The notes beneath the pieces are model-generated. The model was not told where the DNA came from, did not search any database, and worked only from the letters and a program-made list of their open reading frames with translations. A program made the position numbers and the translations under genes. From Candidatus Giovannonibacteria bacterium (lineage in GTDB: Bacteria > Patescibacteriota > Minisyncoccia > UBA11713 > 2-01-FULL-45-33), in assembly GCA_016432405.1 (NCBI GenBank), contig CP066687.1, forward strand, positions 411,040-475,039: a stretch of DNA of 64,000 bases, written 5' to 3'. Positions 13,846 to 28,870 of this stretch are shown one piece after another. Every line of letters starts with the position of its first letter. The first letter of the stretch is position 1.

Positions 13846-15111
13846 TTACTCCACTCTTTTAATCTCCGCTCCGAGTTTGCGGAGGCGTTCGTCTATTTTT
13901 TCGTACCCGCGGTCGATTTGGTAAATGTTGCCGATTTGAGATTCCCCGTTGGCAATGAGCGCGGCCATTAGAAACGCAAGCCCAGCCCGGATATCCGGCC
14001 CCTCTAGATTCCATCCCGCTAAATTGGACGGGCCGTGCACAATTGCGCGATGAGGATCGCAAAGAGTAATACGCGCCCCCATCTTATTTAAATCTTCCAC
14101 GTAACTTAAGCGGCCTTCAAAAATAGTTTCATGTATCATGCTGGCGCCCTCCGCCTGCGTTGCAAAAACAACGTATGGCGCCTGCAAATCAGTGGCAAAA
14201 CCCGGATATTCTTTTGTTTGAATGTTAACCGCTCTCCCGACGTAACGTCGGGATTGCTTCAAAGCAAGCTCGCCATTCCCGATTTCATATTCAACTCCGG
14301 CGGCTTTTAAAACCGCAAGCAGGGCTGTAAGTTCTTCTGCCGGAAAATTTTTAATTGTCATTTCTTTTGCGGCAACAGCCCCGAGGATCGCCAAGCTCCC
14401 GGCTTCTATGCGGTCTGGCGGAGCAAAAAATGGAACTTGCCCGGAAAGCGGTTTTCCTGCACGGCCTTCTATAGTTATCGTGTGCGTGCCGGCTCCGCGG
14501 ATCTCCGCGCCGTTTTTATTCAGCCAATCTGCTAAACTCGCAATTTCCGGCTCTTCGGCGGCATTTCTTAAAACAGTCTGCCCTTTGGCTAAAATAGCCG
14601 TCATCATCAGCCCTTCGGTTCCGGTAACGCTCGGCACACGAAAAATAAAATCGCAGCCTTTAAGGCCTCGAGGCGCGCTGACTTCATAAATCGTTAAATT
14701 ATGGACGTCCGACGTCAATAGTTTACTATGGACGTCGGACGTCGATATATTAGCCCCCATTGCTTTCCAGCCGTCTAAAAAAACATCAATCGGCCGCGCG
14801 CCGATCACGCATCCTCCCGGGTGCGGAAAAGAGGTTTTGCCGAAATGCGCCAAAGCTGGCCCCACTGCCAAAATAGAAGCGCGGATTTTTTTTGCGATCT
14901 CATAATCAAATTGCCCGCCATTTACACTATCCAGAAGCTCTTTCATTCTTTTGATATCTTCAATTTCCGGAAGGTTTTGAAAAGCCGGTCCGCCAGCTGG
15001 CGGAGAAAAAAGCAGCGAGGCAGCCAGAGCCGGCAAAGACGCGTTTTTGGAGCCGGAAACCGAAATATTGCCTTCCAGCGCCTTGCCTCCTTTCACTAAA
15101 AATTTTGCCAT
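13846..15111 (-). CDS. murA: UDP-N-acetylglucosamine 1-carboxyvinyltransferase MurA. Start refined to MAKFLVKGG.
   Basis: About 421 aa. MurA N-terminus (KFLVKGGKALEGNISVSGSKNASLP), catalytic-Cys-region equivalents, and two EPSP-like domains. Contains in-frame palindromic inserts at 14699-14747. Confidence 0.9.
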   Translation of the reverse strand: MAKFLVKGGKALEGNISVSGSKNASLPALAASLLFSPPAGGPAFQNLPEIEDIKRMKELLDSVNGGQFDYEIAKKIRASILAVGPALAHFGKTSFPHPGGCVIGARPIDVFLDGWKAMGANISTSDVHSKLLTSDVHNLTIYEVSAPRGLKGCDFIFRVPSVTGTEGLMMTAILAKGQTVLRNAAEEPEIASLADWLNKNGAEIRGAGTHTITIEGRAGKPLSGQVPFFAPPDRIEAGSLAILGAVAAKEMTIKNFPAEELTALLAVLKAAGVEYEIGNGELALKQSRRYVGRAVNIQTKEYPGFATDLQAPYVVFATQAEGASMIHETIFEGRLSYVEDLNKMGARITLCDPHRAIVHGPSNLAGWNLEGPDIRAGLAFLMAALIANGESQIGNIYQIDRGYEKIDERLRKLGAEIKRVE

Positions 15112-15146
15112 TGGCTTAAATTTATGATAGATTAAGCCGAAAGGCA

Positions 15147-16055
15147 ATGTTAACCAAAAGAAAGCGCAGAATATTTTTCTACATATCTATTTTTGTTTTT
15201 TTGCTCGCCGCCCTTCCCATAATTTTTTACAGCCAAGGATATAGATTGGGGAAAGACCTGGCCCTGCACAAAACCGGCGGAATTTTTATAAAGGCATCCG
15301 AATCCGGAGCCGTCATAAAAGCGGATAAAAAGACCAAATCAACTTCTCTAATCAACAAATCCGCTCTCATCAAAAATCTCCTTCCGGGTGACTATCAAAT
15401 CAGCGCGGAAAAAGAGGGGTTTTGGCCGTGGGCAAAGAGGATTGAGGTTTTGCCGGAGATGGTAGCGGAACGAAGCGCGCTTTTAGTGCCCAAAAATCCA
15501 AAAATGGAAAACCTTGGGACAACCTCGCTGCAGATTGAAAACCCGAAACCCCCGTATCCATCTGTTAAAAAATTCTGGGAAGTCCCAAAAACCGGGGACT
15601 TCATTGTCTTGGGGGAGGACGGCAATTTTTACAAAAACCGCGCTCGCCTGGACGTAATCGGGCTTTGGGGCACGACAACCTATAATATTTTAAAAAGCAA
15701 AAAAAGCAGCTTTTTTGACGAAGATTTCTTAAAAATCGTCTATTGGGACACTCACTCGGTTGGCGCTTATTGGTTCGGGGACTTTGAGCGCGCGCCTAAA
15801 TGGCAGAAAGAAAGGGAACTGGACATATTTTACTCGGATTCGGAGCTTGCGGACGCAAGATTCTATCCCGGCTGGCCGGATTATCTCATAGCCGTAAGCG
15901 GCGATGGGATATACACTCTGGAGATGGACTCATCCGGCGGACAGAACATCGCCCCGCTCTACAAAGGAAGAAAACCGAAAATAGTGTTTATGGATAAAGA
16001 GACCCCGGCTTTAATTATCTTTGACTCTGGCCAATACATCCAGCTCAAACTTTAA
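15147..16055 (+). CDS. Membrane-anchored PEGA-like domain protein (hypothetical)
   Basis: 302 aa. N-terminal TM (FFYISIFVFLLAALPIIFY). The segment LLPGDYQISAEKEGFWPW resembles the PEGA motif. No enzyme motifs. Confidence 0.45.
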   Translation: MLTKRKRRIFFYISIFVFLLAALPIIFYSQGYRLGKDLALHKTGGIFIKASESGAVIKADKKTKSTSLINKSALIKNLLPGDYQISAEKEGFWPWAKRIEVLPEMVAERSALLVPKNPKMENLGTTSLQIENPKPPYPSVKKFWEVPKTGDFIVLGEDGNFYKNRARLDVIGLWGTTTYNILKSKKSSFFDEDFLKIVYWDTHSVGAYWFGDFERAPKWQKERELDIFYSDSELADARFYPGWPDYLIAVSGDGIYTLEMDSSGGQNIAPLYKGRKPKIVFMDKETPALIIFDSGQYIQLKL

Positions 16056-16134
16056 TAAACCTTAATAAATTATCCACAGCTTATAAACAAGCTTTCGCTC
16101 GACAGCCGGCTTTTCATTTTTTAGAATAAAAAAC

Positions 16135-16359
16135 ATGGAGGCGGCTAAAAAGTATTTAACCATCAACCAAACCGCGAAGCTGGTCGGCGTAACCACGCTT
16201 ACATTGCGCAACTGGGACAATGCGCGCAAATTCCGCGCCGCGCGCCACCCAATAAACAACTACAGAATGTATACCCTTGAACAAATAGAAGTACTCTTAA
16301 AAAAAATGGGATTGCCCAGACCTCCAAGAAAACTCGTGATTCAAGTTTTGGAGGACTAA
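16135..16359 (+). CDS. Small HTH DNA-binding protein (excisionase/MerR-superfamily-like HTH_17)
   Basis: 74 aa. LTINQTAKLVGVTTLTLRNWD helix-turn-helix. Paralogous to the N-terminus of the adjacent giant protein. Confidence 0.55.
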   Translation: MEAAKKYLTINQTAKLVGVTTLTLRNWDNARKFRAARHPINNYRMYTLEQIEVLLKKMGLPRPPRKLVIQVLED

Positions 16360-16421
16360 TTCTAAAACAATTTTTAATTTTCAATTTCAAATTTTAAATG
16401 AATTTTCAATTCAATAATTTT

Positions 16422-16769
16422 TTAATGATTAGCCATGGTTGCTGTTATTTTTCCAAAAATTAGCGTGAGCTGCTGAGCTTCTACCCACAATTTTTTGGCA
16501 TCAGTTTCCGATTTTTTGTCAGTATTGGCAATAATTCTTAGCCAATATTTTGTTTCTTGCGCTTCTTTCTTGCAGATGTGGATTTTGTTTCTAAAATCTT
16601 TTCTTGAACTTGCCCCATTCGCTTCGCAATAATTGGCACCGACAGAAGTACCCGCCCTTACCAGCTGTGAAATCAGCGGTAAGGTTACTGGATTTTTATC
16701 TATTTTTGAAGCCAAACTTATTACGCTTTCTGCAAATTTAGCCGTTCTTTCTTCCAAATCGTAATTCAT
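16422..16769 (-). CDS. Four-helix-bundle protein (23S rRNA intervening-sequence protein family-like)
   Basis: 115 aa, all-helical. Motif SVGANYCEA...SRKDF...ICKKEAQETKYWL is typical of this family. Confidence 0.55.
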   Translation of the reverse strand: MNYDLEERTAKFAESVISLASKIDKNPVTLPLISQLVRAGTSVGANYCEANGASSRKDFRNKIHICKKEAQETKYWLRIIANTDKKSETDAKKLWVEAQQLTLIFGKITATMANH

Positions 16770-16841
16770 AATTTAACATTAGATTTAACATTGGATCATT
16801 AGATAATTGATTCAAAATTTGAAATTCAAAATTTAAAATTT

Positions 16842-19800
16842 TTATTGAACCACCTCCACCGTCCTTACGGCTGTCGCGCTGTTTCCGGCGCTGTCGGTCG
16901 CGGAGTAAAGAATCGTGTGCGTGGTGGTGGTTGAGGTGTCCAGCGAAAGCCCGTCTCCTTGCGAAAGTGCCGGTCCCCCATTTAAAGAAGCAGTGTAACC
17001 GAGATTTGAATCAACGTTATCCGTGACGGTTACTCCCATATCCGCGTAACTCGCGCCCACGTTAATCGTCGCCGGGTTATTTCCCAAAATTGTGATTACC
17101 GGCGGGATAACATCGGGTGTTGAAGAAGAAACACCCGATGTTGAGGAGCCGGCGGCGCCGCACGCTCCTGCTTCCGATTTCAAAACCCCATTCTCCGAAA
17201 ACACGCAGACCGGCCCGCCGGTGGCGCGGTCATAAATTGTGAATCCCTGCGGCCCGGTTACGGTGAGTTTTTGCGTTTCAATTTCCTGAACAATCAATTT
17301 TCCGTTTTCATCTATACTCCACAATCCGGAGGCCGACAAAATCTTGCGGACGTTTATGATGTCGTTATTTTGCAAATCCAAGAGACCGGTCGTTCCCAAA
17401 GCAAGCCCTGAAATCTTCGCGTTCAATTCCTGAATCGCTTTTGCCAAAACCGCGGTCAGGTTCGCGTATTTAACATTGACCGGCGTAGAGGACGCGTCAA
17501 GCGTGACCAGCCGCGGGTCAATGCCGAAAACTTCTTCCGCGATTAAACCGACCTGTTCTCCCTTAACTCCGATGTCGTCATTATAAAGGAACGATACCGG
17601 GCGCAAATTTAATACCGTTTCAAGCGCTCCGGCGCCAAGCGAATTAATGTCGTGCTTGAAACGTTGCGAAGAACCCGTGCAGGCCGCGCCATCGCTATAT
17701 GTGACTTCCTTGTTCGCGGAGAGACAGAGAGCTCCGGCTCCGGCTCCGGCCGTAAGCCCGGAAAACGCCGCCGTCCCCGCAACCGACAAAGTCCTCCACG
17801 GCGTCGTGCTTGCGATGCCGAAATCTCCTCCGTTATTAATATATGATTTGTCGGTGCTCAAAACTGGATCGGAAACAATTTTAATCACAGTATCGCCAGC
17901 TTCATTAGTCATTGAAAAACTTGCTTGCTGATTACTGTCCATGCCGAGCTGATGACTAACTGAGCCGCTTGGTCTAACTATATTAACACCGAGAGGTCTT
18001 GGTGATGTTCCTAGACCTAACTGAATTTCAAGCGCGCTTTCACTTGTCGGCACACGGCCAATTCCTACTCTTTTGGTCACGCCGTCAACCGAGATAATTG
18101 GGGGGCCTACAGTTGATGAGGTTGCGATGCTCCACGCGTTAATTACTTGCGGAATTGTTGAGGTCGCGGATTTTTGATAGGAGAAAGTCAGCGCGGCCGC
18201 GGTGCTTGAAGAATAGGTGATGAGGTTGGAGTCAAGATAAGCGTTCCCCTGCACGGAAAGCAAACTTGCCGGACTCGTCGTCCCGATGCCGACGTTGCCG
18301 GTGGTTGCTGCAACAACCAAATGGTCTGCCACGCCACCTTCTCTTATGCCAAAGTTGGTATCTGAACTAGAGTTGCTAACATTGCGACCAATGAACCAAT
18401 CTGGCCCGTCGCCAGTATCAAAATACAAACTCACACTTGCCCCAGCGCCGGTGACCGTGTTGGAAAGTCGTATTTGTGCGGGATCAGTTGTGCCCGCGTC
18501 AATGTTTAATGAATAGGTCCCGGGGTTTGCCACCCCAATACCCACATTCCCCGTAAAATATCCATTTCCCGCAACTGAAAAGAGCGAAGCCGGACTCGTC
18601 GTCCCGATGCCGACGTTGCCGCCTGTTGTTATTACAAATTCATTACCTGTAAAATCAGCGTCCTCACTAATCTTAAAGGAATCCGAATCTGAATTATCTA
18701 TGCCTGCATACCATGAAATGACATCAGGCAATTGCCAACGCAATGTCGCATCCCCCGTCCCAGCTTGTTGAATTTTAATTCCCGCCGAACCAGTAAGGGC
18801 ATCATTATTTCTTACAACGAGAGACTGGTCTGGACTCGTCGTCCCAATGCCGACGTTGCCGCTTGTTTGCTGGACCACGAATTGGCTTGTGCCGATAGTG
18901 AAGCCACCTGTCCCGAATGTACTCGTCGCTGTGCCACTCACCGCGAGCGTTCCCGTCGCCGTAAGACCCGCCACAGAAAGATTGCTGGAGAACAGCCCGG
19001 CTCCATGCACCGAAAGCAAACTCCCCGGACTCGTCGTCCCGATGCCGACGTTGCCGTTATCAATTACACTCAAAACCTCCGTAATATTTACCAAGGCGGT
19101 ACTGGCATAACCAAGACTTATTCTAGAATTAGAGCCAGTAGAAAAATTTTCAATTCCTACACGAGTACTACCGCCAGCGTTCATCGCAATCCCATTCCCC
19201 GCGGCACCATTAGAGAAATAAATCTTTGATGCCGCTCCGCCAATTTCCACTTTAGTCGTAGGATTCGCTAACCCGATGCCGACATTGCCGCCATTAAGCA
19301 GAGTTAATACAGGCGGAGTTGAAGTGGCATACGCATCAGTTGATGTTCCCACATAGAGATTCCCTCCCATTGACGATAAGAGCCAATGTTTCAGGTTTGC
19401 TCCGGCAGAAGTATCGGAAAGCGCGAAAGAAGGCCTCGTCCCCGCCGCCTGCAGGAGCCAGTTCGGCGTCGTCGTCCCGATGCCGACGTTGCCACTGATT
19501 ATTGCTCCATTAGTTGGTGGAGTGGCTCCCCCGTCAGCGTAAGTTCCCACAGCTATGCCCTGATAGCCGACAGAAAGTGAGGGGGCTGTAACTCCATTAC
19601 TTCCGGTACCTTTAAGGTCTATTCGAACAGGACCCGAATCCGAAGCGCTGGCTCCGCTCTGTACAAACCGTATTTGTGCGTACCCGTCACCCTCACTAAA
19701 AAATAGATTATTAGCATTTACACCAAGAGCTCGTATCACACCGAGTTCGTCTCCACTGGCAGTCTGAGAAAGCGTGTCTACGCTTGTTCCAACAGATTTT

Positions 19801-22800
19801 CTGAAAGACAGAGTGCCACTATGAGTTAGAGTGGCGCTGTAAGCAGATATTGTTTGGACTGTATCGGCAGATGCTCCAGCCAGTTCTAGTAATGAACTCG
19901 GGCTAGCGTCCCCGATGCCGATTCTGCCGTTTTGATTTACTCCGCCAACCACAAATGACGGCGTTGAACTTCCGGTATTTGATATCACGAACGAATTTGT
20001 CTCCGTTCCCTGTTCAACCGACAACAACCCCCACGGACTCGTCGTCCCGATGCCGACGTTGCCGCCTTCTGCAATAGACATCCTTATGGCACTTGAGCCG
20101 CCGCCTATTGGGTCTGTATAAAAGTTCAATACATTATTGGTCTCGTCCCACTGAATGTAGGCGCGGTCCACGCCATTTTCATTGAAGCGGATATTTGAAC
20201 TCCCCTCCGCACCATCTAAAATCAATTTATCGGTGTTGGCCGAATTAAAGATATGCAAGGCGTTAGCCGGACTCATCGTCCCGATGCCGACGTTGCCGTT
20301 TTCCGCCACATACAAGCTGTTGGCGGTTGCTCCGCGATTTACAACAAAAGCGGTGTTGTTGCCAACAGTAAGCCCTCCAGAAATAGTGGAAGTGGCGGTG
20401 GTGGAAGTCGCGTTGAAAATAGGGATATTGAGAGTCCCGTAGCTTGTGATGCTTGAATTAAACAATCCTCCGCCCGCCACCGAAAGCAAAGCCCCCGGAC
20501 TCGTCGTCCCGATGCCGACGTTGCCTCCGCTTAACAATGTCATCACAATAGCATCATTGATAGCAAATTGAATTGGGTAAGTGCCAGTTGATTGAAGCAC
20601 ACTTGCGTATGCAGATGCTCCTGTTAGTAATCCTCCAGTAGTGCTCCAATTTTTACCCAACTCAAATGTACCGCCAGTATTTATAATATCGATATATGCA
20701 TAGTTTGTGCCTGTAGTTGATGTGATTTTCATCCTTCCAGTTTCACTTTGAATATCAAGTGGCAGTGTTGGATTCGTCGTCCCGATGCCGACGTTACCGC
20801 CGGATGTAGCCAGATACGTTGAGCCGGTGGTGGTTAATTGCGTCCCCGAAGCATTTCCAAAAGTTAGAAGCCCAGTAACATTCAGCGTTGAAGTCGCCGT
20901 TATCGCCCCGCCGAAGAATCCCGTGCCGGAGAAGTATCCGCTTCCCTGCACCGAGAGCAATGCCCCCGGACTCGTCGTCCCGATGCCGACGTTGCCGGCA
21001 GCATTTATCGTTATAGCCGGTGTTGTAGCTAACGCTCCGAGAGGCGCGGTATAGAACTTCAAACCAGCATCGTTGTTTGTGGCACTTTGGATAAAACCGC
21101 TTATCCGACCCATTGGTAAGACATCACTCCGCTGTTTGAAGTCTATGCTTATCTCGTCATTTGCAAGCATCTGGAGGTCGGAATATGACATACTGAGCAA
21201 AGTAATTTGTGTTGCGGCTCTATTTCCCCCTACCACATCTAATTTATACAAAGGCCCCGTCGTCCCGATGCCGACGTTGCCGCCATTAGTAACTATGAAA
21301 TTCGTTGCCGTTGAAGAGCCAACCACGAATGAAGGGACACCCGCGCCAAGAGCGTTCGGATTTACCGAAAGAAGCCCCCACGGCGAAGTTGATGCGATGC
21401 CGACGTTGCCGGTGGAGGTGACATTAAAAAGCGAAGAGTCAGATGAAGAAAGGACGCGGAAAAGGTCGGCGGATTGGCTGGTAACTCCCTTGATTGTTAA
21501 AGGAATGGCGGTGGTGGAAGTAGCTCCGATTGTGAGCACGGAAAGTCCGGAGTGAGTAGTGGTGCCGAAAGCGGCCTGTCCCGCGGCCGAGAAGACAAAT
21601 CTGGTTGTGGGCTCGCTGGCGCCATCCTGAAGCCGCAAAAGGTCTCCCGAAACGGTGGAGTTCCACATTGTGTATGCGGCGCCGGTAGTGGTGGCCAAAT
21701 GAGTAATTCTTCCCTTAAAAATATGGCTGTCGGCGTTGGGGGCGTCTCCCATTGTAAATTGATTTTCAACAGTGAAGTTGGATGCGGTGGTGGAAGCCAA
21801 AGTTGTGCCGCCAACGGTGGTCAGTCCATTTGCAAAAACGTCCCCGTCAGCATCAACAAGGAAGCGAACCGCTCCGCCGACAGCTATGCCCAGAAGATTG
21901 GTATCCGCCGCCGCCGAAGCCGGATTGATGACCACAACCGAGTCCGTGACCGCGGAGTTGGCAACGCCAACAGCCCAGGTGCCGAAAGTGTGCGAAACCG
22001 TCGGGCTTTTTGTGACTAAAAGCTGTTCGGTGAGAGTCGTGGTGGAGTTTACATTCATTGAAGCGCCGGAGACGTTAAGCCCGCCGCTCGCAAGTATGTC
22101 TCCCGAAACCGAAAAAGTTGCGCTGGGAGTCGTGGTGCCTATGCCAATTCTGTAGTTTTTTGTGTCAAAAGTAAGAAAAGGAGTGACGGAAGTGGAAGTG
22201 GCGAAAGAGAAAGCGTTGATTAAGGAAGAGGCGATGGTGGTGGTGGCCTGGTTGAAGAAAGCGAGATTTCCGTAAAGAGTCATGTCCCCCGTAAGTTGGA
22301 GGGTGGAAGAAGCGTAAACGGCGCTGGCGAAGTCGGAGCGGCCGGAGACGGTAAGAGCGCCGATGGAAGCGGAAGTTGAGTTAAGCGAGGTTGAGGTCAG
22401 AGAAGCCAAGCCCGATACCGCTCCGGCTGAAGTTACGTTCCAGACGTTTGAGGTTATGGATACGTTTTTGCCTTCAGCCCCAAGAGTCACGTTTCCTGAA
22501 GCGTTTAAATTGCCGCCGGTGGAAATTCCGTTGGAGAAGTCCCCGAAAGAAGCCGAGACGCCGGAGCCGGTCTGGGGAGGAGACGAAGCGTAAGGGCCGG
22601 GGATTGAAGTCGTGAGAAAGACAACCGGATTTTGGACCTGGTTGGAAGGAAGCCGTTTTTCCAAAGCGGCAAGAGAAAGCTGGACCTGTGCCAAGACGGC
22701 TTGGTTGAGAGAAGAGAGGCGCTGGTCAAGCTCTGTTTGGGAGATGCCTGCCTTGCCGGCAGGCAGGCCGGAGACGACGCGTTCAACTACTCCGACGCTC

Positions 22801-23987
22801 GGCTTTGCCGAGGTCGGAGCCCCGACCAAAGCGTCGGGGCGGGATGGAGGTGTGGAAGTTGATTCTCCAAATGTGATAATTTTACTTCCATCTTGAGGTA
22901 AATTGGGAGCCGGAGGAGTTTCCGCGGCTTCAGGCGGTTTAACCGAGAAAAAATCCATTGCCACCAGCTTCAGGTCGCCCCCCAAAGACGCTATGTATCC
23001 CCGCCAGCCGAGGACATTGTTTATAAATCTGTCTTTAATATCCGAGAGAGAGAGTTTGGCGTCTTTAAAAGTAAAGGGCAAAGAAAAGGTAGCTCCGACG
23101 TCAGGAAGTCGGAGTCCCGACCAAAGCGTCGGGGGAAGCGAGAATTCGGGCAAAGCAAGAGCCAGCGAGGGGAGTTTGATTTCCGGCCAAGCGAAAAGTT
23201 CTGTGAGAGGTTGGAAATTTGGAAGTTGAAAAGTCGGAAGTTTGAAAGTAAGTTGAGGCAGTTTTGGTTTTGGTAAAGTTAATTTTGGAAGTTTGATTTC
23301 GGGCAGGGAGAGGGCTAGAGAGGCTCGGTCTTTGATGCTTTGAAAAACGTTTCCGAGCACTGCTTTAATGTTAACCTCACCTCCCAACCCCCTCTCCTTA
23401 CGAAGGAGAGGGGGCGGAGGGGGTGAGGTAAGGGTCTCAAAAAATCCGGCTGCAAATTTTTTCGCAGAGACAATAGAATTCCCAATTTCATCCGCGACGA
23501 CGAAAATCTCACCTGCCAACTCTTTCACGGAGACATTAATATTTTCGGTTGCATCCGCAATAGAATTTTTGATTGCGCCCGCGTTATAAAAAATCAGCAC
23601 GGCAATCAGTACTGACGAGAGAGAAGCCGCTCCCAGCGACCATTGCTTCAGAGAAAATTTCGGAAACCGAATTTTTGGAAATTGAAAGTATTCTTTCTCT
23701 TTCTCCCCCAAAATCGCCTTGTCCCACTCATCTGTTGTATGAAAGATTTCCGGCTTTGTAAGGATAACTTGCGGCTCTGTTTTCTCTTGCGTCCGCAAGA
23801 TGGATTTTTTGTAATCCAAAATAGATTTTTCGGAAACCATCCAATCGGTGCCGAATTTTTTTCCTTTTACTTTTTCCTCGCGGCAAAGCTGTCCGACATA
23901 GATGCGTGTATAGCCGCAAAGAGCCGCGGCCTCGGAAGCCGTGATATATTTTTCCCCTTCTAAGATAATTTCACGAGAATCTTTCAT
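16842..23987 (-). CDS. Giant (2381 aa) membrane-anchored fibre-like surface protein: N-terminal HTH, TM, Pro-rich linker, GNVGIGTTSP repeats, C-terminal intramolecular-chaperone (peptidase S74-like) domain, Ig-like tail
   Basis: Single uninterrupted ORF. The N-terminal ITASEAAALCGYTRIYVGQLCREEKV is an HTH. A TM segment lies at about aa 110-135. The LPKLTLPKPKLPQLTFKLPTF Pro-rich repeats follow. There are more than 12 G(G)NVGIGTTSPxxLLSV modules. The C-terminus (SSQRFKHDINSL...LRPVSFLY...GLIAEEV) matches the auto-cleaving tailspike chaperone domain. The final approximately 120 aa (PVITILGNNPATINVGASYADMGVTVTDNVD) resemble a bacterial Ig-like/DUF5011-type domain. Confidence 0.8.
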   Translation of the reverse strand: MKDSREIILEGEKYITASEAAALCGYTRIYVGQLCREEKVKGKKFGTDWMVSEKSILDYKKSILRTQEKTEPQVILTKPEIFHTTDEWDKAILGEKEKEYFQFPKIRFPKFSLKQWSLGAASLSSVLIAVLIFYNAGAIKNSIADATENINVSVKELAGEIFVVADEIGNSIVSAKKFAAGFFETLTSPPPPPLLRKERGLGGEVNIKAVLGNVFQSIKDRASLALSLPEIKLPKLTLPKPKLPQLTFKLPTFQLPNFQPLTELFAWPEIKLPSLALALPEFSLPPTLWSGLRLPDVGATFSLPFTFKDAKLSLSDIKDRFINNVLGWRGYIASLGGDLKLVAMDFFSVKPPEAAETPPAPNLPQDGSKIITFGESTSTPPSRPDALVGAPTSAKPSVGVVERVVSGLPAGKAGISQTELDQRLSSLNQAVLAQVQLSLAALEKRLPSNQVQNPVVFLTTSIPGPYASSPPQTGSGVSASFGDFSNGISTGGNLNASGNVTLGAEGKNVSITSNVWNVTSAGAVSGLASLTSTSLNSTSASIGALTVSGRSDFASAVYASSTLQLTGDMTLYGNLAFFNQATTTIASSLINAFSFATSTSVTPFLTFDTKNYRIGIGTTTPSATFSVSGDILASGGLNVSGASMNVNSTTTLTEQLLVTKSPTVSHTFGTWAVGVANSAVTDSVVVINPASAAADTNLLGIAVGGAVRFLVDADGDVFANGLTTVGGTTLASTTASNFTVENQFTMGDAPNADSHIFKGRITHLATTTGAAYTMWNSTVSGDLLRLQDGASEPTTRFVFSAAGQAAFGTTTHSGLSVLTIGATSTTAIPLTIKGVTSQSADLFRVLSSSDSSLFNVTSTGNVGIASTSPWGLLSVNPNALGAGVPSFVVGSSTATNFIVTNGGNVGIGTTGPLYKLDVVGGNRAATQITLLSMSYSDLQMLANDEISIDFKQRSDVLPMGRISGFIQSATNNDAGLKFYTAPLGALATTPAITINAAGNVGIGTTSPGALLSVQGSGYFSGTGFFGGAITATSTLNVTGLLTFGNASGTQLTTTGSTYLATSGGNVGIGTTNPTLPLDIQSETGRMKITSTTGTNYAYIDIINTGGTFELGKNWSTTGGLLTGASAYASVLQSTGTYPIQFAINDAIVMTLLSGGNVGIGTTSPGALLSVAGGGLFNSSITSYGTLNIPIFNATSTTATSTISGGLTVGNNTAFVVNRGATANSLYVAENGNVGIGTMSPANALHIFNSANTDKLILDGAEGSSNIRFNENGVDRAYIQWDETNNVLNFYTDPIGGGSSAIRMSIAEGGNVGIGTTSPWGLLSVEQGTETNSFVISNTGSSTPSFVVGGVNQNGRIGIGDASPSSLLELAGASADTVQTISAYSATLTHSGTLSFRKSVGTSVDTLSQTASGDELGVIRALGVNANNLFFSEGDGYAQIRFVQSGASASDSGPVRIDLKGTGSNGVTAPSLSVGYQGIAVGTYADGGATPPTNGAIISGNVGIGTTTPNWLLQAAGTRPSFALSDTSAGANLKHWLLSSMGGNLYVGTSTDAYATSTPPVLTLLNGGNVGIGLANPTTKVEIGGAASKIYFSNGAAGNGIAMNAGGSTRVGIENFSTGSNSRISLGYASTALVNITEVLSVIDNGNVGIGTTSPGSLLSVHGAGLFSSNLSVAGLTATGTLAVSGTATSTFGTGGFTIGTSQFVVQQTSGNVGIGTTSPDQSLVVRNNDALTGSAGIKIQQAGTGDATLRWQLPDVISWYAGIDNSDSDSFKISEDADFTGNEFVITTGGNVGIGTTSPASLFSVAGNGYFTGNVGIGVANPGTYSLNIDAGTTDPAQIRLSNTVTGAGASVSLYFDTGDGPDWFIGRNVSNSSSDTNFGIREGGVADHLVVAATTGNVGIGTTSPASLLSVQGNAYLDSNLITYSSSTAAALTFSYQKSATSTIPQVINAWSIATSSTVGPPIISVDGVTKRVGIGRVPTSESALEIQLGLGTSPRPLGVNIVRPSGSVSHQLGMDSNQQASFSMTNEAGDTVIKIVSDPVLSTDKSYINNGGDFGIASTTPWRTLSVAGTAAFSGLTAGAGAGALCLSANKEVTYSDGAACTGSSQRFKHDINSLGAGALETVLNLRPVSFLYNDDIGVKGEQVGLIAEEVFGIDPRLVTLDASSTPVNVKYANLTAVLAKAIQELNAKISGLALGTTGLLDLQNNDIINVRKILSASGLWSIDENGKLIVQEIETQKLTVTGPQGFTIYDRATGGPVCVFSENGVLKSEAGACGAAGSSTSGVSSSTPDVIPPVITILGNNPATINVGASYADMGVTVTDNVDSNLGYTASLNGGPALSQGDGLSLDTSTTTTHTILYSATDSAGNSATAVRTVEVVQ
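18276..21420. repeat. Intragenic dispersed repeat, about 24-29 nt conserved between copies (GGACTCGTCGTCCCGATGCCGACGTTGCC and variants), at least 12 copies
   Basis: Copies sit at about 18276, 18590, 18830, 19030, 19460, 20033, 20268, 20500, 20773, 20960, 21250 and 21385. They are spaced irregularly at 130-600 nt. On the minus strand each encodes GNVGIGTTSP. Confidence 0.8.
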
Positions 23988-24083
23988 AGAAAGCTTTCAT
24001 AAGAAATATTCTTTTTAGAACATTCTATATCTTTCAGTATAAGTCCGCGGATTTTTTATTTAAACAAAAAATCCGCAATTTTC

Positions 24084-24092
24084 TGTGGATAA
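24084..24092 (-). promoter_or_regulatory. Consensus DnaA box (TGTGGATAA on plus = TTATCCACA) in the giant-gene promoter region
   Basis: Exact 9-mer, about 95 nt upstream of the giant ORF start. Next to the inverted repeat CGGATTTTTT-N8-AAAAAATCCG (24046-24073) and AT-rich AAATTTAAAATTTT tandem repeats. Confidence 0.4.
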
Positions 24093-24165
24093 GTATTAAA
24101 AAAATTTTAAATTTAAAATTTTAAATTTAAAATTAAGTTTTAATAAACGTTATTAAACCTTGATA

Positions 24166-24894
24166 CTAACTAGCTTTATTTGCCTGTCGCCAGGCGGCTA
24201 TTTTTTTATGATTCCCGGAAAGAAGGATTTTGGGGACTTTATATGTTTTCCCCTTCCATTTGAATATTTCCGGCCTTGTGTAGGCCGGCACGCCGATGCC
24301 GTGCCTTTTTTCTTCAAGCGATTCGGACTTGCCCAAAACCCCGGGAATTTTTCTTAAAACTGCGTCAACAATAACCATCGCGGGGAGTTCCCCGCCGGTG
24401 AGGACATAGGGACCTATGCTCAAATTTTCAATTTTTAACCCGCCTGCCGGACGGGCAGGTTTCCAATTTTCAATTATTGATTTAACGCGCTCGTCAATGC
24501 CTTCATAGCGGCCGCAGATAAAAATAATCCGTTTATATTTCTTGGCGAAATCTCCGGCCATTTTAGAATTAAATTGTTTTCCGGAAGCGGAGAGTAAAAT
24601 TATCAAGACGTCCGACGTCTTCTCTGACTTAGACGTCGGACGTCTAAGTTGAAGAATTGAATCAAGAGCTTTGGCAAGCGGCTCAATTTTCAATACCATC
24701 CCCGGGCCGCCGCCGTAGGGCCGGTCGTCAACCCGCCCAAAGCTACGCATTGAGGCGGGCAAGAAATTTCTTAAATCCCAGATTTTTATTTTTGCCAATT
24801 TCTTTTTTTGGGCGCGCGAAATTATGGACTCGTTAAAATAATCCCTAAAAACTTTCGGAAAAATTGTGATGATATCGAAACGCAAGTTTGACAT
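24166..24894 (-). CDS. trmD: tRNA (guanine37-N1)-methyltransferase TrmD. Start refined to MSNLRFDII.
   Basis: About 243 aa with a TrmD SPOUT fold (RFDIITIFP...GRYEGIDERV...GGELPAMV). The ORF-track N-terminal extension is encoded by a REP-B palindrome. In-frame GACGTC(C/G)GACGTC palindromes lie at 24606-24645. Confidence 0.85.
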   Translation of the reverse strand: MSNLRFDIITIFPKVFRDYFNESIISRAQKKKLAKIKIWDLRNFLPASMRSFGRVDDRPYGGGPGMVLKIEPLAKALDSILQLRRPTSKSEKTSDVLIILLSASGKQFNSKMAGDFAKKYKRIIFICGRYEGIDERVKSIIENWKPARPAGGLKIENLSIGPYVLTGGELPAMVIVDAVLRKIPGVLGKSESLEEKRHGIGVPAYTRPEIFKWKGKTYKVPKILLSGNHKKIAAWRQANKAS

Positions 24895-24912
24895 TTTTTT
24901 ATTTTTGCCCCG

Positions 24913-24933
24913 CTTAGCAATCCGATTGCTAAG
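24913..24933. repeat. REP family B palindrome CTTAGCAATC(C/G)GATTGCTAAG
   Basis: 21-nt palindrome between trmD and RAYT2. Other copies: 25391-25411 (inside RAYT2 coding, in-frame LLSNRIAKL), 25605-25625 (variant at the RAYT2 5' end) and 48691-48715 (25-nt perfect). Confidence 0.8.
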
Positions 24934-24940
24934 TAAATCT

Positions 24941-25588
24941 CTATTCACATAACAAATCCTCCATTTCTTTAAATAGCCGCTTTCGCTCCAAAATATCGTT
25001 GAGGGAGCTTTCCGCAAACTTCCTATATTCATCGGCGCTATCAAACTGTTCAAGAATAATAGCCGATCTGCAAAGGGAAGATTTAGATTTTTGCTTAGAA
25101 AAATATTCTTCCCAACTTGATCTAAACTTTTTGTTGCCTTTAATTCTGTGCGCTTTATTGTTTAGGTTTACGTATGCGCTCAAATGCAATAAATACTCGT
25201 TTGAATTGATATGTTTAGCTTTGAATTTTCCTTGGAGAAGAACGCCTGTTCTGTGATATTTAAAATTGAAATGTTGAGTAAACCCGGTCCCTATTCTTCG
25301 CATATATTCACTGATCCCATTGTCTACCCTTTGGCGCAAAATCATATGATAATGATTGGGGTTAAGACAAAAACACACGACGTCCACCAACTTAGCAATC
25401 CGATTGCTAAGTAGAAGTTTTCTAAAAGAATGTTCAAAAATACTGCCAATTGGTTTTACGGAATTAAAATCTTCCATGCCTTGAAGAAATCTTTCGAAAT
25501 CATAACCGTCCAAAAATATATCCCGTTTATCTACACCGCGATTATAAACGTGATAAAACTCTCCGTTTGTAAATCTAAATTTACGCAT
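24941..25588 (-). CDS. REP-associated tyrosine transposase (RAYT), copy 2. Start refined to MRKFRFTNGEFYHVYNRG.
   Basis: HuH motif NPNHYHMIL. Conserved N-terminal HVYNRGVDKRDIF and catalytic region YVNLN. Flanked by, and containing, REP-B. Confidence 0.75.
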   Translation of the reverse strand: MRKFRFTNGEFYHVYNRGVDKRDIFLDGYDFERFLQGMEDFNSVKPIGSIFEHSFRKLLLSNRIAKLVDVVCFCLNPNHYHMILRQRVDNGISEYMRRIGTGFTQHFNFKYHRTGVLLQGKFKAKHINSNEYLLHLSAYVNLNNKAHRIKGNKKFRSSWEEYFSKQKSKSSLCRSAIILEQFDSADEYRKFAESSLNDILERKRLFKEMEDLLCE

Positions 25589-25627
25589 AATTAAAACAAT
25601 AGCACTAAGCAATCGGATTGCCAAGTA

Positions 25628-25666
25628 AACCAACGGCTCGCATCCAAAAAATGCGAGCCGTTGGTT
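25628..25666. terminator. Perfect 16-bp-stem hairpin with an A/T-rich loop (possible bidirectional terminator)
   Basis: AACCAACGGCTCGCAT-CCAAAAA-ATGCGAGCCGTTGGTT. It lies between RAYT2 and the KH-protein gene. Confidence 0.4.
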
Positions 25667-25690
25667 ATTATTTCGCTTTTTCGGCGAAAT

Positions 25691-26017
25691 TTAAAGTTTA
25701 AGGTCGTCAACCATGTCGTCCACGCCCCGGCTTCTTGGAACATGAGTCCCTCCTTCCGGTTCCTCAATCTTGAGGTTCACCCGCGCGTGGTTTTTTATTC
25801 CGACCACGCGCAGAAGCGTGCGGAGCGCCTTGGCGGTGTTGCCTTGGCGGCCGATGAGCTTGCCGACGTCTTCTTTGCCCACTTTCACGGACAAAAGGAC
25901 GCCCATCTCATCAACCTTCCTCGCAACCTTGACAGCGCTGGGATTATCAACGAGCGCTTTGACCACATACTCCAAAAATTCCTCGTCAGAATACGTGCTA
26001 GATGCTTTTGCAGCCAT
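25691..26017 (-). CDS. KH-domain RNA-binding protein (YlqC/UPF0109-like)
   Basis: 108 aa with a KH GxxG-type loop (LIGRQGNTAKALRTL). Canonical position between rpsP and trmD. Confidence 0.8.
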   Translation of the reverse strand: MAAKASSTYSDEEFLEYVVKALVDNPSAVKVARKVDEMGVLLSVKVGKEDVGKLIGRQGNTAKALRTLLRVVGIKNHARVNLKIEEPEGGTHVPRSRGVDDMVDDLKL

Positions 26018-26074
26018 TGTAGCAAAGTCCGTTCTTTAGCCCTGTAATATCCGAATTTTCGACCATTTTCGGCG

Positions 26075-26317
26075 TTATTTGGTAATTATACCACCTTTAA
26101 TCAGTAAACTGCGCGCCGTAGCAGAAAGCTGGGCGCCGTTTATTATCCAGCGCTTAATGCGTTCGCTTTTAAAAAGTGCTTTCTTCGTTTTCGGGCTGTA
26201 AGAGCCGAGCGTCTCCAAATAGCCGCCGCTTTTGGGGCCCCTTTTGGAATCCGTAACCACCAGCCGGAAATTCGGGTCGTTTTTCCTCCCGACGCGCTGT
26301 AAGCGGATAATTAACAT
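26075..26317 (-). CDS. rpsP: 30S ribosomal protein S16
   Basis: 80 aa. MLIIRLQRVGRKNDPNFRLVV is the S16 N-terminus. Confidence 0.9.
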   Translation of the reverse strand: MLIIRLQRVGRKNDPNFRLVVTDSKRGPKSGGYLETLGSYSPKTKKALFKSERIKRWIINGAQLSATARSLLIKGGIITK

Positions 26318-26398
26318 ATAAAAAGAATCCTACACCAAAATAAAAAATCCCGCAAGGGCTTTTATATGTCAATGTGTATTAAAAAAAGCCCGGGAATA

Positions 26399-28853: not shown

Positions 28854-28870
28854 CCGAAACTTAGTTTCGG
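28854..28870. repeat. REP family C hairpin CCGAAAC-TTAG-TTTCGG
   Basis: Copies at 28854-28870 (between pcm and RAYT3), 29526-29542 (other side of RAYT3) and 29327-29344 (inside RAYT3, in-frame DLNLVSDI). Confidence 0.75.

What the first reader, a model, noticed from the sequence alone, without database searches (positions are those of the whole stretch)
16842..23987. Giant surface protein combining a cytoplasmic HTH, a TM anchor, GNVGIGTTSP fibre repeats and a phage-tailspike intramolecular-chaperone domain
The domain order is HTH (aa about 10-60), TM (about 110-135), Pro-rich LPxL repeats, about 1500 aa of Ser/Thr/Gly/Ala-rich beta-type repeats punctuated by G(G)NVGIGTTSPxxLLSV modules, then a C-terminal segment SSQRFKHDINSL...LRPVSFLY...GLIAEEV. 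That segment matches the auto-proteolytic chaperone (peptidase S74-like) found at the C-termini of phage tail fibres and endosialidases. A bacterial Ig-like domain follows. A trimeric, self-processing fibre tethered to a DNA-binding cytoplasmic domain is an unusual architecture. Plausible roles are a host-attachment fibre of an episymbiont or a domesticated phage tail fibre.
Basis: partly seen in the sequence, partly recalled or inferred. Interest (0 to 1): 0.7.

Follow-up and report, generated by a model that had tools for sequence, protein, structure and literature searches.

The report
Membrane-anchored phage-like fibre of CPR bacterium
A tiny, probably host-dependent bacterium (Candidatus Giovannonibacteria) encodes a 2381-residue cell-surface fibre built like a phage tail fibre, held in its own membrane by an unusual DNA-binding-type anchor; it is a strong candidate for how such bacteria grab their partners.

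Summary
ORF 16842-23987 (-) encodes 2381 aa. From N to C it has a winged HTH of the Xis/MerR (HTH_17) type, a single N-in TM helix, and a Pro-rich LPxL spacer. About 1600 aa of tail-fibre-like shaft follow, with 14 GNVGIGTTSP modules. Then come a Peptidase_S74 intramolecular chaperone with an intact Ser2106/Lys2111 dyad and a terminal Ig-like (DUF5011) domain.

It is not an assembly chimera and not a prophage. The same layout recurs in independent assemblies from several Patescibacteria lineages, and the neighbours are housekeeping genes with conserved synteny.

The shaft is homologous to phage tail fibres and to the Bdellovibrio MAT fibres, which that predator uses to recognise prey.

The HTH-TM module belongs to a large, almost exclusively patescibacterial family. 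Most members are about 320 aa, with two HTH copies and a tiny ectodomain. This short form is a core gene that sits beside gatB in 92 of 120 loci, with obg (67) and secA (41) nearby. About one in six sampled members carries a giant ectodomain.

Best reading: a cell-anchored adhesive fibre that S74 folds into a trimer and then cleaves. The function of the cytoplasmic HTH remains inferred.

The protein is already deposited at NCBI as "DUF5011 domain-containing protein", but I found no description of the architecture. I rate it a new variant of a known kind.

The parts
16842..23987 (-). Complete ORF, 2381 aa plus stop codon. Identical to the NCBI entry 'MAG: DUF5011 domain-containing protein [Candidatus Giovannonibacteria bacterium]'.
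24036..24076 (-). Upstream control region: a hairpin after trmD (24047-24076) overlapping a promoter-like TTTAAA-17-TATACT site (24064-24036). This suggests the gene has its own transcription unit.
   Evidence: consensus matches only
23805..23969 (-). Cytoplasmic winged HTH, aa 7-61, of the Xis/MerR (HTH_17) type. Family signature: Y-I-S..A....GY..DY(V/I)GQL(C/A)R..K....R(V/I)G..W(Y/F)V.
23643..23804 (-). Cytoplasmic linker, aa 62-115. It contains the subfamily-conserved helix motif DEWDKAILGEKEKE and the K/R-rich juxtamembrane flank.
23571..23642 (-). Single transmembrane signal-anchor, aa 116-139, N-in / C-out.
22581..23570 (-). Extracellular spacer and fibre base, aa 140-469. It comprises a PPPPP stretch, Pro-rich LPxL repeats (about aa 186-335, variable in length among homologs) and the conserved segment ...RLPSNQVQNPVVFLTTSIPGP.
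17673..22580 (-). Fibre shaft and tip, aa 470-2105, rich in Ser/Thr/Gly/Ala. Homologous to phage tail fibres and to Bdellovibrio MAT fibres. A conserved Cys-x15-Cys loop lies just before the S74 cleavage site.
18243..21425 (-). Array of 14 (G)GNVGIGTTSPxxLLSV modules, aa ~855-1915, at irregular spacing of 129-744 nt. The roughly 29-nt core is nearly identical at the codon level.
17343..17672 (-). Peptidase_S74 intramolecular chaperone, aa 2106-2215. Predicted nucleophile Ser2106 (codon 17670-17672) and general base Lys2111 (codon 17655-17657) lie in the motif S-S-Q-R-F-K.
17097..17342 (-). Conserved beta-rich linker with a Cys pair, aa 2216-2297 (…WSIDENGKLIVQEIETQKLTVTG…CVFSENGVLKSEAGAC). It is shared with P0004, and with P0005, which lacks S74.
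16851..17096 (-). C-terminal Bact_surface_Ig-like / DUF5011 domain, aa 2298-2379, located distal to the predicted cleavage site.

Best explanation
This is a chromosomally encoded, cell-anchored adhesive fibre of a Patescibacteria (CPR) bacterium. It is built from phage-tail-fibre / MAT-type modules.

Proposed mechanism:
1. The protein inserts as a type II membrane protein. The N-terminal winged HTH stays in the cytoplasm, one TM helix anchors it, and about 2240 aa are exported. The topology is shown by sequence features; the export route is inferred.
2. The Pro-rich LPxL spacer carries the fibre through the cell envelope (inferred).
3. The C-terminal S74 domain trimerises and nucleates folding of the intertwined fibre. 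It then cuts itself off at Ser2106 using Lys2111, releasing the chaperone together with the Cys-linker and the Ig-like domain. This is inferred from the conserved dyad and from experimentally characterised S74 domains.
4. The mature trimer projects from the cell and binds a partner or host surface, as the homologous Bdellovibrio MAT fibres bind prey (inferred from homology and lifestyle).
5. The cytoplasmic HTH is borrowed from a Patescibacteria-wide family of HTH-TM proteins. It most likely binds DNA, or a common conserved ligand, and so ties the fibre base to the nucleoid or membrane interface. This is the weakest step and rests on fold alone.
For: Anatomy: domain order and topology are supported.

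S74: Pfam score above cutoff. The profile hits T5 pb1 (6f45, 2.5e-10), tail fibre 8jov (2e-13), MYRF ICA (7dc3, 8e-5) and the GA-1 chaperone (3gud), which starts exactly at the aligned Ser. The S-x4-K motif is invariant in four divergent homologs.

Shaft homology: PHROG tail-fibre families match at 1e-24 and 1e-18. Cyanophage, pelagiphage and roseophage fibres match at about 30% identity. Bdellovibrio Bd2133 (8ond, 2.3e-4) and 8ojn match with the same xGNVGIGTxxPxxxLxV module. The MAT paper shows surface localisation, glycan binding and S74 self-cleavage (Bd3182 S782) for that family (PMC10769870).

Real and recurrent architecture: P0004, P0005, P0006, P0014, P0017, P0067, P0070 and L182 combine HTH, TM and a giant fibre, most of them with S74.

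Cellular rather than phage: the neighbours are RseP, MreB, MurA, TrmD, MltG and PCMT. None of the 8 neighbouring ORFs tested has a PHROG hit. The rpsP-KH-trmD neighbourhood is shared with P0004 and also with the distant P0017.

HTH: a high-confidence winged-HTH model. The closest folds are all dsDNA binders: Pukovnik Xis (TM-score normalised to target, TMt, 0.70; rmsd 1.8 A), BldC, RdfS, RacA and TraN. The family has 2457 representatives at E<=1e-3. Of 167 proteins examined, 156 carry the HTH and 133 of those have exactly one TM segment after it. Genome hits are almost all Patescibacteria.

Variability: against P0004 the N- and C-terminal thirds are collinear while the centre is rearranged. 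This fits a modular recognition protein.
Against: - There is no experimental evidence for this protein or for any patescibacterial homolog.
- The trimer and the cleavage were not modelled. The monomer AlphaFold2 model of the C-terminus is poor over S74, with pLDDT of about 30-50.
- The motif reads S-S-x-R-x-K rather than the usual S-D-x-R-x-K.
- Cleavage at Ser2106 would discard the Ig-like domain. This is odd if that domain is the adhesin.
- In this protein the HTH scores below the Pfam cutoff.
- DNA binding is inferred from fold only, and an HTH in the same position in RodZ binds a protein instead.
- The host or partner of Giovannonibacteria is unknown, and some Patescibacteria may be free-living.
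- The number of internal repeats cannot be verified without read mapping.
Confidence: 0.6

Rival explanations
1. MYRF-like membrane-tethered transcription factor. Fibre engagement or S74-driven trimerisation triggers proteolysis, for example by the nearby site-2 protease RseP. This frees the HTH to regulate genes in response to host contact.
For: - A DNA-binding domain, a TM helix and an S74 domain also co-occur in eukaryotic MYRF, and the S74 profile hits the MYRF ICA domain (7dc3).
- An M50/RseP gene lies about 5 kb away, both in the window and in the syntenic L001.
- The HTH has a DNA-binder fold.
Against: - The S74 domain is about 1970 residues from the TM helix and on the opposite side of the membrane. 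Cutting at Ser2106 releases only the C-terminal 276 aa and cannot free the HTH. In MYRF the ICA domain lies between the DNA-binding domain and the TM helix, on the same side.
- Most HTH-TM family members have an ectodomain of about 50 aa and no S74, so the role of the HTH does not depend on S74.
- RseP is a housekeeping neighbour within a conserved syntenic block. No specific link was found.
Confidence: 0.1
2. The cytoplasmic HTH is a protein-docking domain, as in RodZ, rather than a DNA binder. It would couple the fibre base to MreB or another cytoplasmic scaffold to position the fibres.
For: - The layout (HTH, linker, single TM, outside domain) is the same as in RodZ (my own knowledge of RodZ).
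- mreB lies about 3 kb downstream in the window and in L001.
- The recognition helix (GQLxR) is almost invariant across thousands of members. This suggests one common ligand rather than diverse operators.
Against: - The fold is of the Xis/MerR/HTH_17 type, not the XRE type of RodZ. All close structural matches bind dsDNA.
- The mreB neighbourhood is absent in L002, L004 and L128.
- The short family members sit beside gatB, obg and secA, not beside mre genes.
Confidence: 0.15
3. A prophage, tailocin or eCIS tail fibre (a virion or particle component) that merely lies in the chromosome.
For: - PHROG tail-fibre hits and S74.
- The 23-nt core of the repeat is present in more than 120 IMG/VR contigs.
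- Matches to phage fibres.
Against: - None of the 8 neighbouring ORFs tested matches a PHROG family.
- The flanking genes are housekeeping genes, with synteny conserved between distant genomes.
- The N-terminus is an HTH plus a TM anchor, not a baseplate or virion attachment domain.
- The HTH-TM module is a core patescibacterial family.
Confidence: 0.04
4. An assembly or gene-calling artefact that fuses a small HTH gene, a membrane protein and a fibre gene.
For: - The gene is repeat-rich and comes from a metagenome assembly. Coverage could not be inspected.
Against: - The reading frame is continuous.
- The same HTH-TM-fibre N-terminus and the same fibre-S74-Ig C-terminus occur in independent assemblies. 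These are P0004 (60% identity over aa 1-1039 and 47% over aa 1656-2381), P0005, P0006, P0014, P0017, P0067 and L182.
- Internal DNA repeats are 67 bp or shorter.
Confidence: 0.03

Closest known systems
Bdellovibrio bacteriovorus MAT (mosaic adhesive trimer) fibres, S74 subfamily (Caulton et al. 2024, PMC10769870; PDB 8ond, 8ojn)
   Same: - Encoded by a cell rather than a phage, and displayed on the surface of a bacterium that lives on other bacteria.
- The shaft has the same xGNVGIGTxxPxxxLxV module.
- Many members end in an S74 chaperone/protease with an S-x4-K motif. Cleavage was shown experimentally for Bd3182.
- Both families are modular and mosaic, and both have S74 and non-S74 variants. 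P0005 lacks S74.
   Different: - MATs have a signal peptide and a conserved beta-rich N-terminal domain of about 130 aa that is thought to bind a surface element of a diderm cell. The window protein instead has a cytoplasmic winged HTH, a TM signal-anchor and a Pro-rich spacer.
- The window protein is more than twice as long.
- It carries a linker and an Ig-like domain after S74.
- The MAT paper does not mention Patescibacteria, a TM anchor or an HTH.
Phage tail fibres and tailspikes with a C-terminal intramolecular chaperone (K1F endosialidase, T5 pb1 6f45, GA-1 gp12 3gud, 8jov)
   Same: - S74 domain with the Ser/Lys dyad.
- Fibre repeats that match PHROG tail-fibre families and cyanophage, pelagiphage and roseophage fibres.
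- A shared nucleotide-level core of the repeat.
   Different: - The window protein is anchored in a cell membrane, not attached to a virion.
- It sits in a housekeeping gene neighbourhood.
- In the matched phage examples S74 ends the protein. Here about 165 further residues follow it.
MYRF (myelin regulatory factor; ICA domain, PDB 7dc3)
   Same: - To my knowledge it is the only well-known protein that combines a DNA-binding domain, a TM helix and an S74-type domain in one chain. The S74 homology was detected here.
   Different: - The order in MYRF is DNA-binding domain, ICA, TM, so cleavage frees the transcription factor. Here the order is HTH, TM, fibre, S74, and cleavage occurs outside the cell, far from the HTH.
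- MYRF has an Ndt80-type DNA-binding domain rather than a Xis/MerR-type winged HTH.
Xis/MerR-type winged HTH proteins (Pukovnik Xis 4j2n, BldC 6ama, RdfS 8dgl, RacA 5i44, TraN 4p0z)
   Same: - The N-terminal domain has the same fold and belongs to an HTH_17 subfamily.
- The tandem-HTH short form resembles the internal two-HTH arrangement of TraN.
- RacA is a precedent for tethering a chromosome to the cell envelope (my own knowledge).
   Different: - Those proteins are soluble. This family is fused to a TM helix.
- No PDB sequence homolog was found.
RodZ
   Same: - A bitopic layout: cytoplasmic HTH, linker, single TM, outside domain (my own knowledge).
   Different: - RodZ has an XRE-type HTH that binds MreB.
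- No sequence or family match was found here.

Membership tests
Peptidase_S74 / C-terminal intramolecular chaperone domain | Significant match to the PF13884 profile | tested here: met
   36.9 bits against a cutoff of 22, aa 2106-2161. The profile hits 8jov, 6f45, 7dc3 and 3gud.
Peptidase_S74 / C-terminal intramolecular chaperone domain | Catalytic Ser and a Lys five residues later (S-D-x-x-x-K) | tested here: met
   S2106 and K2111 (SSQRFK) align to SDERLK, SDRRIK and SDERHK in solved structures. Both residues are invariant in 4 homologs. The Asp at position 2 is Ser here.
Peptidase_S74 / C-terminal intramolecular chaperone domain | Trimerisation-dependent autocleavage that releases the chaperone | not testable with these tools
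   This needs expression of wild-type and S2106A fragments. The monomer AlphaFold2 model over S74 is of low confidence.
MAT (mosaic adhesive trimer) superfamily | Trimeric fibre shaft homologous to MAT and phage fibres | tested here: met
   phmmer hits to Bd2133 (8ond, 2.3e-4) and to 8ojn (7.5e-3), sharing the GNVGIGT module. The trimeric state itself was not tested.
MAT (mosaic adhesive trimer) superfamily | Signal peptide followed by a conserved beta-rich N-terminal domain of about 130 aa | tested here: not met
   The N-terminus is a folded winged HTH. The only hydrophobic segment starts at aa 116 and is followed by a Pro-rich spacer. I therefore treat the protein as MAT-like in its shaft and chaperone, not as a member of the family as defined.
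MAT (mosaic adhesive trimer) superfamily | Surface display and binding of prey or host surface molecules | not testable with these tools
   Requires microscopy or binding assays.
HTH_17 (PF12728; Xis/MerR-like winged HTH) | Profile match at or above the gathering score | tested here: inconclusive
   The window protein scores 13.2-20.5 bits, below the cutoff of 27. Homologs pass: P0067 35.9, P0049 34.6 and P0035 28 bits. 22 of 28 family members match at E<=0.01.
HTH_17 (PF12728; Xis/MerR-like winged HTH) | Winged-helix fold of the excisionase type | tested here: met
   AlphaFold2 pLDDT of 96-98. Foldseek matches Pukovnik Xis (TMt 0.70, rmsd 1.8 A), BldC (TMt 0.70) and RdfS.
HTH_17 (PF12728; Xis/MerR-like winged HTH) | Binds double-stranded DNA | not testable with these tools
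   Needs EMSA or ChIP.
MYRF-type self-cleaving membrane transcription factor | S74/ICA domain located between the DNA-binding domain and the TM helix, so that cleavage frees the DNA-binding domain | tested here: not met
   The order is HTH (aa 7-61), TM (aa 116-139), then S74 (aa 2106-2215), with S74 on the other side of the membrane.
Phage or tailocin virion tail fibre | Encoded within a phage or tail gene cluster | tested here: not met
   The neighbours are housekeeping genes, and none of the 8 tested matches a PHROG family. Chromosomal synteny is conserved.
Bact_surface_Ig-like / DUF5011 (PF16403) | Profile match above the cutoff | tested here: met
   46.3 bits against a cutoff of 27, aa 2298-2379. 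Modelled at pLDDT 76-90.
RodZ | XRE-type HTH (HTH_25) plus the RodZ C-terminal domain | tested here: not met
   No such Pfam or NCBIfam hit. The fold is of the Xis/MerR type.

The most novel reading that the evidence does not exclude
The HTH-TM module may define a Patescibacteria-specific class of membrane-to-DNA tethers. The short two-HTH form would be a core gene, found beside gatB, obg and secA. In the giant paralogs the same module would physically couple an extracellular host-binding fibre, as a trimer of three HTHs, to the nucleoid or to incoming DNA. Host contact, cell polarity and DNA handling would then be linked through a single polypeptide in bacteria that depend on their hosts for nucleotides.

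Separately, the motif-specific 21-29-nt core of the fibre repeat is conserved across phage and CPR genes regardless of GC content. It may be a dedicated recombination joint for swapping fibre modules between phages and cells.
Probability: 0.15. Interest if true: 0.85.

Novelty: new variant of a known kind. Interest (0 to 1): 0.6.

Why it matters
How Patescibacteria (CPR) cells recognise and hold on to their partners is largely unknown outside the type IV pili and a few adhesins of Saccharibacteria (PMC10633639, PMC12206443).

This locus shows that Parcubacteria-type lineages (Giovannonibacteria, Taylorbacteria, Nomurabacteria and others) carry chromosomal fibres of the phage-tail-fibre / MAT type. 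Those are the same type of molecule that phages use to recognise hosts and that Bdellovibrio uses to recognise prey. This provides concrete candidate receptor-binding proteins, with a testable S74 maturation step.

It also exposes a large, essentially patescibacterial family of HTH-TM proteins of unknown function. The short form of that family behaves like a core gene.

Finally, the pairing of an S74 chaperone with a DNA-binding domain and a TM helix is otherwise known from eukaryotic MYRF. That makes this a useful comparison point for how such modules are recombined.

Tried and rejected
1. Exact-sequence contig look-ups for the window protein, P0001 and P0002 found nothing.
2. A single-sequence PDB search of the C-terminal 352 aa missed S74. 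Only a four-sequence profile found it.
3. A PDB profile search with the HTH alignment gave no significant hit.
4. The third homologous-protein search, using the HTH alignment, returned only short fragments and added little.
I replaced it with a degenerate DNA pattern.
6. The AlphaFold2 model of the C-terminal 342 aa as a monomer, with 6 sequences, was poor over S74. I did not use it for fold searching.
7. DGR idea: a PF05635 (Avd-like) gene lies directly downstream, but none of the ORFs scanned near the giant gene matched a reverse-transcriptase family, and no template/variable repeat pair was found in 15000-26500. Rejected.
8. Prophage idea: rejected on gene context.
9. CRISPR-like reading of the 29-nt repeats: rejected, because they are in-frame codons of a protein motif at irregular spacing.
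10. Literature searches for this architecture in CPR bacteria found no description.
Full report
**1. Observation**

The window carries one uninterrupted ORF on the minus strand, 16842-23987, with an ATG start and 2381 aa. It is preceded by a 178-bp AT-rich spacer after trmD. That spacer contains a hairpin and a promoter-like site, so the gene probably has its own transcription unit.

Pfam gives two matches above their curated cutoffs. Peptidase_S74 matches aa 2106-2161 at 36.9 bits (cutoff 22). Bact_surface_Ig-like/DUF5011 matches aa 2298-2379 at 46.3 bits (cutoff 27). HTH_17 matches aa 14-61 below threshold.

PHROGs adds two tail-fibre families over the repeat region (1e-24 and 1e-18). It also gives weak excisionase and HTH DNA-binding hits for aa 4-62.

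A hydropathy scan finds exactly one TM-grade segment, aa ~116-139, with a score of 1.88 against 1.34 for the next best. Its N-terminal flank is K/R-rich and its C-terminal flank is acidic, which indicates an N-in, C-out orientation.

Fourteen N[VI]GI[GA] modules lie between aa 861 and 1898. Their 29-nt core has 11 matches, against 0 expected by chance.

**2. Organism and setting**

The identical protein exists at NCBI as [quoted passage not shown] on a 651,549-bp contig.

The neighbouring genes are RseP, MreB, MurA, TrmD, MltG/YceG, PCMT and a PF05635 protein. None of the eight neighbouring ORFs tested matches a PHROG family.

In the closest homolog locus (L001, P0004) the order PCMT-YceG-S16-KH-TrmD-giant-...-MurA-MreB-...-RseP is conserved. 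The distant homolog P0017 shows about 23% identity in its best long local alignments to the window protein. Its gene also lies next to S16-KH-TrmD.

This is a chromosomal gene inherited with the core genome, not a prophage remnant.

**3. The architecture is real and recurrent**

A search with the N-terminal 464 aa found P0001 (HTH_17, TM, LPxL, fibre start) and P0002. The full-length search found several proteins that begin with the same HTH followed by a TM segment. These are P0004 (2778 aa), P0005 (2010 aa), P0006 (Taylorbacteria, 3772 aa), P0008 (1380 aa), P0014 (2605 aa) and P0017 (2142 aa). P0007 (1439 aa) has the HTH but only a weaker hydrophobic segment. P0004, P0006, P0014 and P0017 also carry S74.

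Three further examples support this:
- P0067 (1699 aa) has a tandem HTH_17 at 35.9 bits, above the cutoff, plus a TM segment and S74.
- P0070 (3878 aa) is named [quoted passage not shown] at NCBI.
- A Nomurabacteria genome (L182) encodes a 2130-aa protein with an HTH, a TM segment, a collagen-like stretch, a fibre and S74 (SDERLK).

Against P0004 the window protein is collinear over aa 1-1039 (60% identity) and over aa 1656-2381 (47% identity). The centre is rearranged. Both domain junctions are therefore independently confirmed. Only the number of internal modules remains unverified. Internal DNA repeats are 67 bp or shorter.

**4. The S74 domain**

I built a four-sequence profile of the segment. 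It hits tail fibre 8jov (2e-13), T5 pb1 6f45 (2.5e-10), the MYRF ICA domain 7dc3 (8e-5) and the GA-1 neck-appendage chaperone 3gud. The crystallised 3gud chain begins at the aligned Ser.

Ser2106 and Lys2111 (S-S-Q-R-F-K) align with S-D-E-R-L-K and S-D-R-R-I-K. Both residues are invariant in four divergent homologs.

A conserved Cys...Cys loop lies immediately before the Ser. After the chaperone come a conserved beta-rich linker with a second Cys pair and then the Ig-like domain.

If cleavage occurs as in characterised S74 proteins, the last 276 residues leave the mature fibre, including the Ig-like domain. P0017, P0067 and L182 also have extensions after S74. A post-chaperone tail therefore recurs among these patescibacterial fibres. 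In the matched phage examples and in P0018, S74 ends the protein.

**5. The shaft**

tblastn against named phages finds Synechococcus, Pelagibacter and Roseobacter phage fibre genes at about 30% identity. Some of these are annotated "chaperone of endosialidase" or "tail fiber".

The PDB search finds two Bdellovibrio bacteriovorus proteins, Bd2133 (8ond) and a "cell wall surface anchor family protein" (8ojn), which share the xGNVGIGTxxPxxxLxV module. These are MAT fibres (PMC10769870). According to that paper:
- they are trimeric, mosaic, surface-displayed fibres of a predatory bacterium;
- 13 of 21 end in S74 (SDxxxK), and cleavage was shown for Bd3182;
- one member binds prey glycans;
- all have a signal peptide and a conserved beta-rich N-terminal domain of about 130 aa.

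The paper does not mention Patescibacteria, a TM anchor or an HTH.

The window protein shares the shaft and the chaperone with MATs, but it has a different way of being held on the cell.

**6. The HTH-TM module**

An exhaustive HMMER search with aa 1-470 found 2457 representative proteins at E<=1e-3 and 266 at E<=1e-10. I examined 167 proteins:
- 156 contain the HTH;
- 136 have two tandem copies;
- 142 have a TM segment after it, and 133 have exactly one;
- the median ectodomain is only 53 aa.

A degenerate DNA pattern for GYxxDY[IV]GQL[CA]R hit at least 120 loci in species-representative genomes. Nearly all are Patescibacteria: Saccharibacteria, Kaiser-, Nomura- and Zambryskibacteria, Paceibacterota and Minisyncoccia. 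One hit was a contig labelled Acidimicrobiales. In those loci 106 of 122 ORFs have the HTH followed by a TM segment. Nineteen ORFs exceed 700 aa, and most of these run off the 8-kb locus.

An unbiased neighbour clustering of those loci shows GatB in 92 of 120, Obg in 67 and SecA in 41. The short form therefore behaves as a core syntenic gene, and the giant fibres are paralogs that reuse its N-terminal module. The 64-kb window contains no second member of the family.

The AlphaFold2 model of aa 1-160 is very confident over aa 10-65 (pLDDT 96-98). Its topology is beta-beta-alpha-alpha-beta-beta-alpha, followed by a long helix over the TM segment. Foldseek's best-fitting targets are Pukovnik Xis (TMt 0.70, rmsd 1.8 A), BldC, RdfS, RacA bound to DNA, and the two-HTH protein TraN. 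The E-values are weak because the query includes disordered and TM parts.

22 of 28 family HTH domains match HTH_17. The recognition-helix motif GQLxR and the wing Trp are almost invariant. I read this as pointing to one common ligand rather than to diverse operators. That reading is an inference.

**7. Mechanism**

The steps shown by sequence are the domain order, the N-in topology, the intact S74 dyad, the phage/MAT-type shaft and the chromosomal setting.

The steps inferred from characterised homologs are:
- S74-driven trimerisation and C-to-N folding, then autocleavage at Ser2106;
- projection of the fibre from the cell;
- binding to a partner surface.

The role of the HTH is weakly inferred. 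DNA or nucleoid tethering is favoured by the fold. A RodZ-like docking role and a MYRF-like release mechanism are the alternatives.

The MYRF-like reading is disfavoured for two reasons. S74 is about 1970 residues away on the other side of the membrane. Most family members also have no S74.

**8. Novelty**

The protein is deposited and auto-named, so the sequence is not new. S74-capped cellular fibres are known from the MAT family.

I found no description of the following features in searches of PMC and bioRxiv:
- anchoring by a cytoplasmic Xis/MerR-type winged HTH plus a TM helix;
- the wide occurrence of that anchoring across Patescibacteria;
- the Ig-like extension after the chaperone;
- the existence of the large HTH-TM family itself.

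I rate the finding a new variant of a known kind, with interest 0.6.

**9. Side observations**

*Codon-level conservation of the repeat core.* The repeat core is conserved at the codon level far beyond what codon bias explains.
- In the window gene, 10 of 13 GNVGIG motifs use GGC AAC GTC GGC ATC GGG ACG. Codon use across the gene for those amino acids is nearly even.
- The 23-mer GGCAACGTCGGCATCGGGACGAC occurs in the homolog genes of L001-L004 and in more than 120 IMG/VR contigs.
- In CPR loci not selected on this motif, 16 of 78 GNVGIGT motifs are the identical 21-mer.
- In viral loci with GC content from 0.29 to 0.65, each motif position shows a 75-86% preference for one codon. This includes GGG at the third Gly, against GGC at the first two.

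*Inteins in homologs.* P0004 (two copies), P0006 and L245 carry inteins, with a NYN domain according to Pfam, inserted between two modules at ...FVVGSST|T... The window protein has this sequence uninterrupted.

Both features fit a gene family that exchanges modules by recombination. The cause is unresolved.

Noticed in passing
window 18271-21281 (-); also L001, L002/L003, L004 and IMG/VR loci L005-L124: The roughly 21-29-nt core that encodes GNVGIGTT(SP) is conserved at the codon level. Six copies in this gene are identical over 29 nt. Ten of 13 use GGC AAC GTC GGC ATC GGG ACG, although codon use across the gene is nearly even. The same 23-mer occurs in distant CPR homologs and in more than 120 viral contigs with GC content from 0.29 to 0.65. 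In CPR loci not selected on this motif, 16 of 78 motifs are the exact 21-mer. Possible causes are a recombination joint or gene conversion; this is unresolved.
   Followed up: partly
L001 8001-16337 (P0004 aa 1029-1375 and 1661-2057); L002 (P0006 aa 968-1330); L245; empty site at window protein aa ~890-900 (about 21290-21320): Homologous fibre genes carry inteins, with a NYN domain instead of a classical homing endonuclease according to Pfam. They are inserted between two NVGIG modules at ...FVVGSST|T(Y/A)L... P0004 has two copies. The window gene has the uninterrupted site. Inteins in an exported surface protein are unusual.
   Followed up: partly
window 16422-16769 (-); L002 13605-14174: A PF05635 (23S rRNA intervening-sequence protein, an Avd-like four-helix bundle) gene lies directly downstream of the giant gene, both here and in the Taylorbacteria homolog locus. 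In L001 a 74-aa MerR-like gene occupies that position. No reverse-transcriptase family match among the ORFs scanned near the gene and no template/variable repeat pair were found, so a DGR is not supported.
   Followed up: partly
loci L129-L248 (species-representative Patescibacteria genomes): The short form of the HTH-TM family (about 320 aa, usually two HTH copies, one TM segment and an ectodomain of about 50 aa) is a core syntenic gene. GatB is a neighbour in 92 of 120 loci, Obg in 67 and SecA in 41. In L125-L127 a small 80-aa HTH_17/MerR gene lies next to it. Function unknown.
   Followed up: partly
window 24941-25633 (-), 28861-29517 (-), 9826-10497 (-): Two ORFs with IS200-like Y1 transposase matches (PF01797: E 4.4e-4, below the cutoff, and 5e-6 at 27.1 bits, above it) are scattered among housekeeping genes. 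By synteny, the third ORF (9826-10497) corresponds to a weak Y1_Tnp hit in L001, though it was not itself scanned against Pfam. A similar ORF cluster recurs in 11 of the 120 patescibacterial loci.
   Followed up: no
window 16792-16840 and 24086-24134: An AT-rich 49-nt direct repeat (73% identity, AAATTT/AAAATT periodicity) flanks both ends of the giant gene. It is probably low-complexity intergenic or promoter sequence rather than a mobile-element boundary (family D6).
   Followed up: no
P0005 (C-terminal ~330 aa): This homolog keeps the HTH, the TM segment, the fibre, the Cys-linker and the Ig-like domain, but it has no detectable S74. A different segment (...GDRITISSAPGVGMKATTSGQTVGIALEPY...) sits where the chaperone would be. 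The CPR family thus has S74 and non-S74 variants, like the Bdellovibrio MATs.
   Followed up: no
window 15147-16055 (+); L001 16669-17577: A 302-aa ORF with no significant family match (a weak PEGA hit, E 0.014) is conserved in synteny between the giant gene and murA in both genomes.
   Followed up: no
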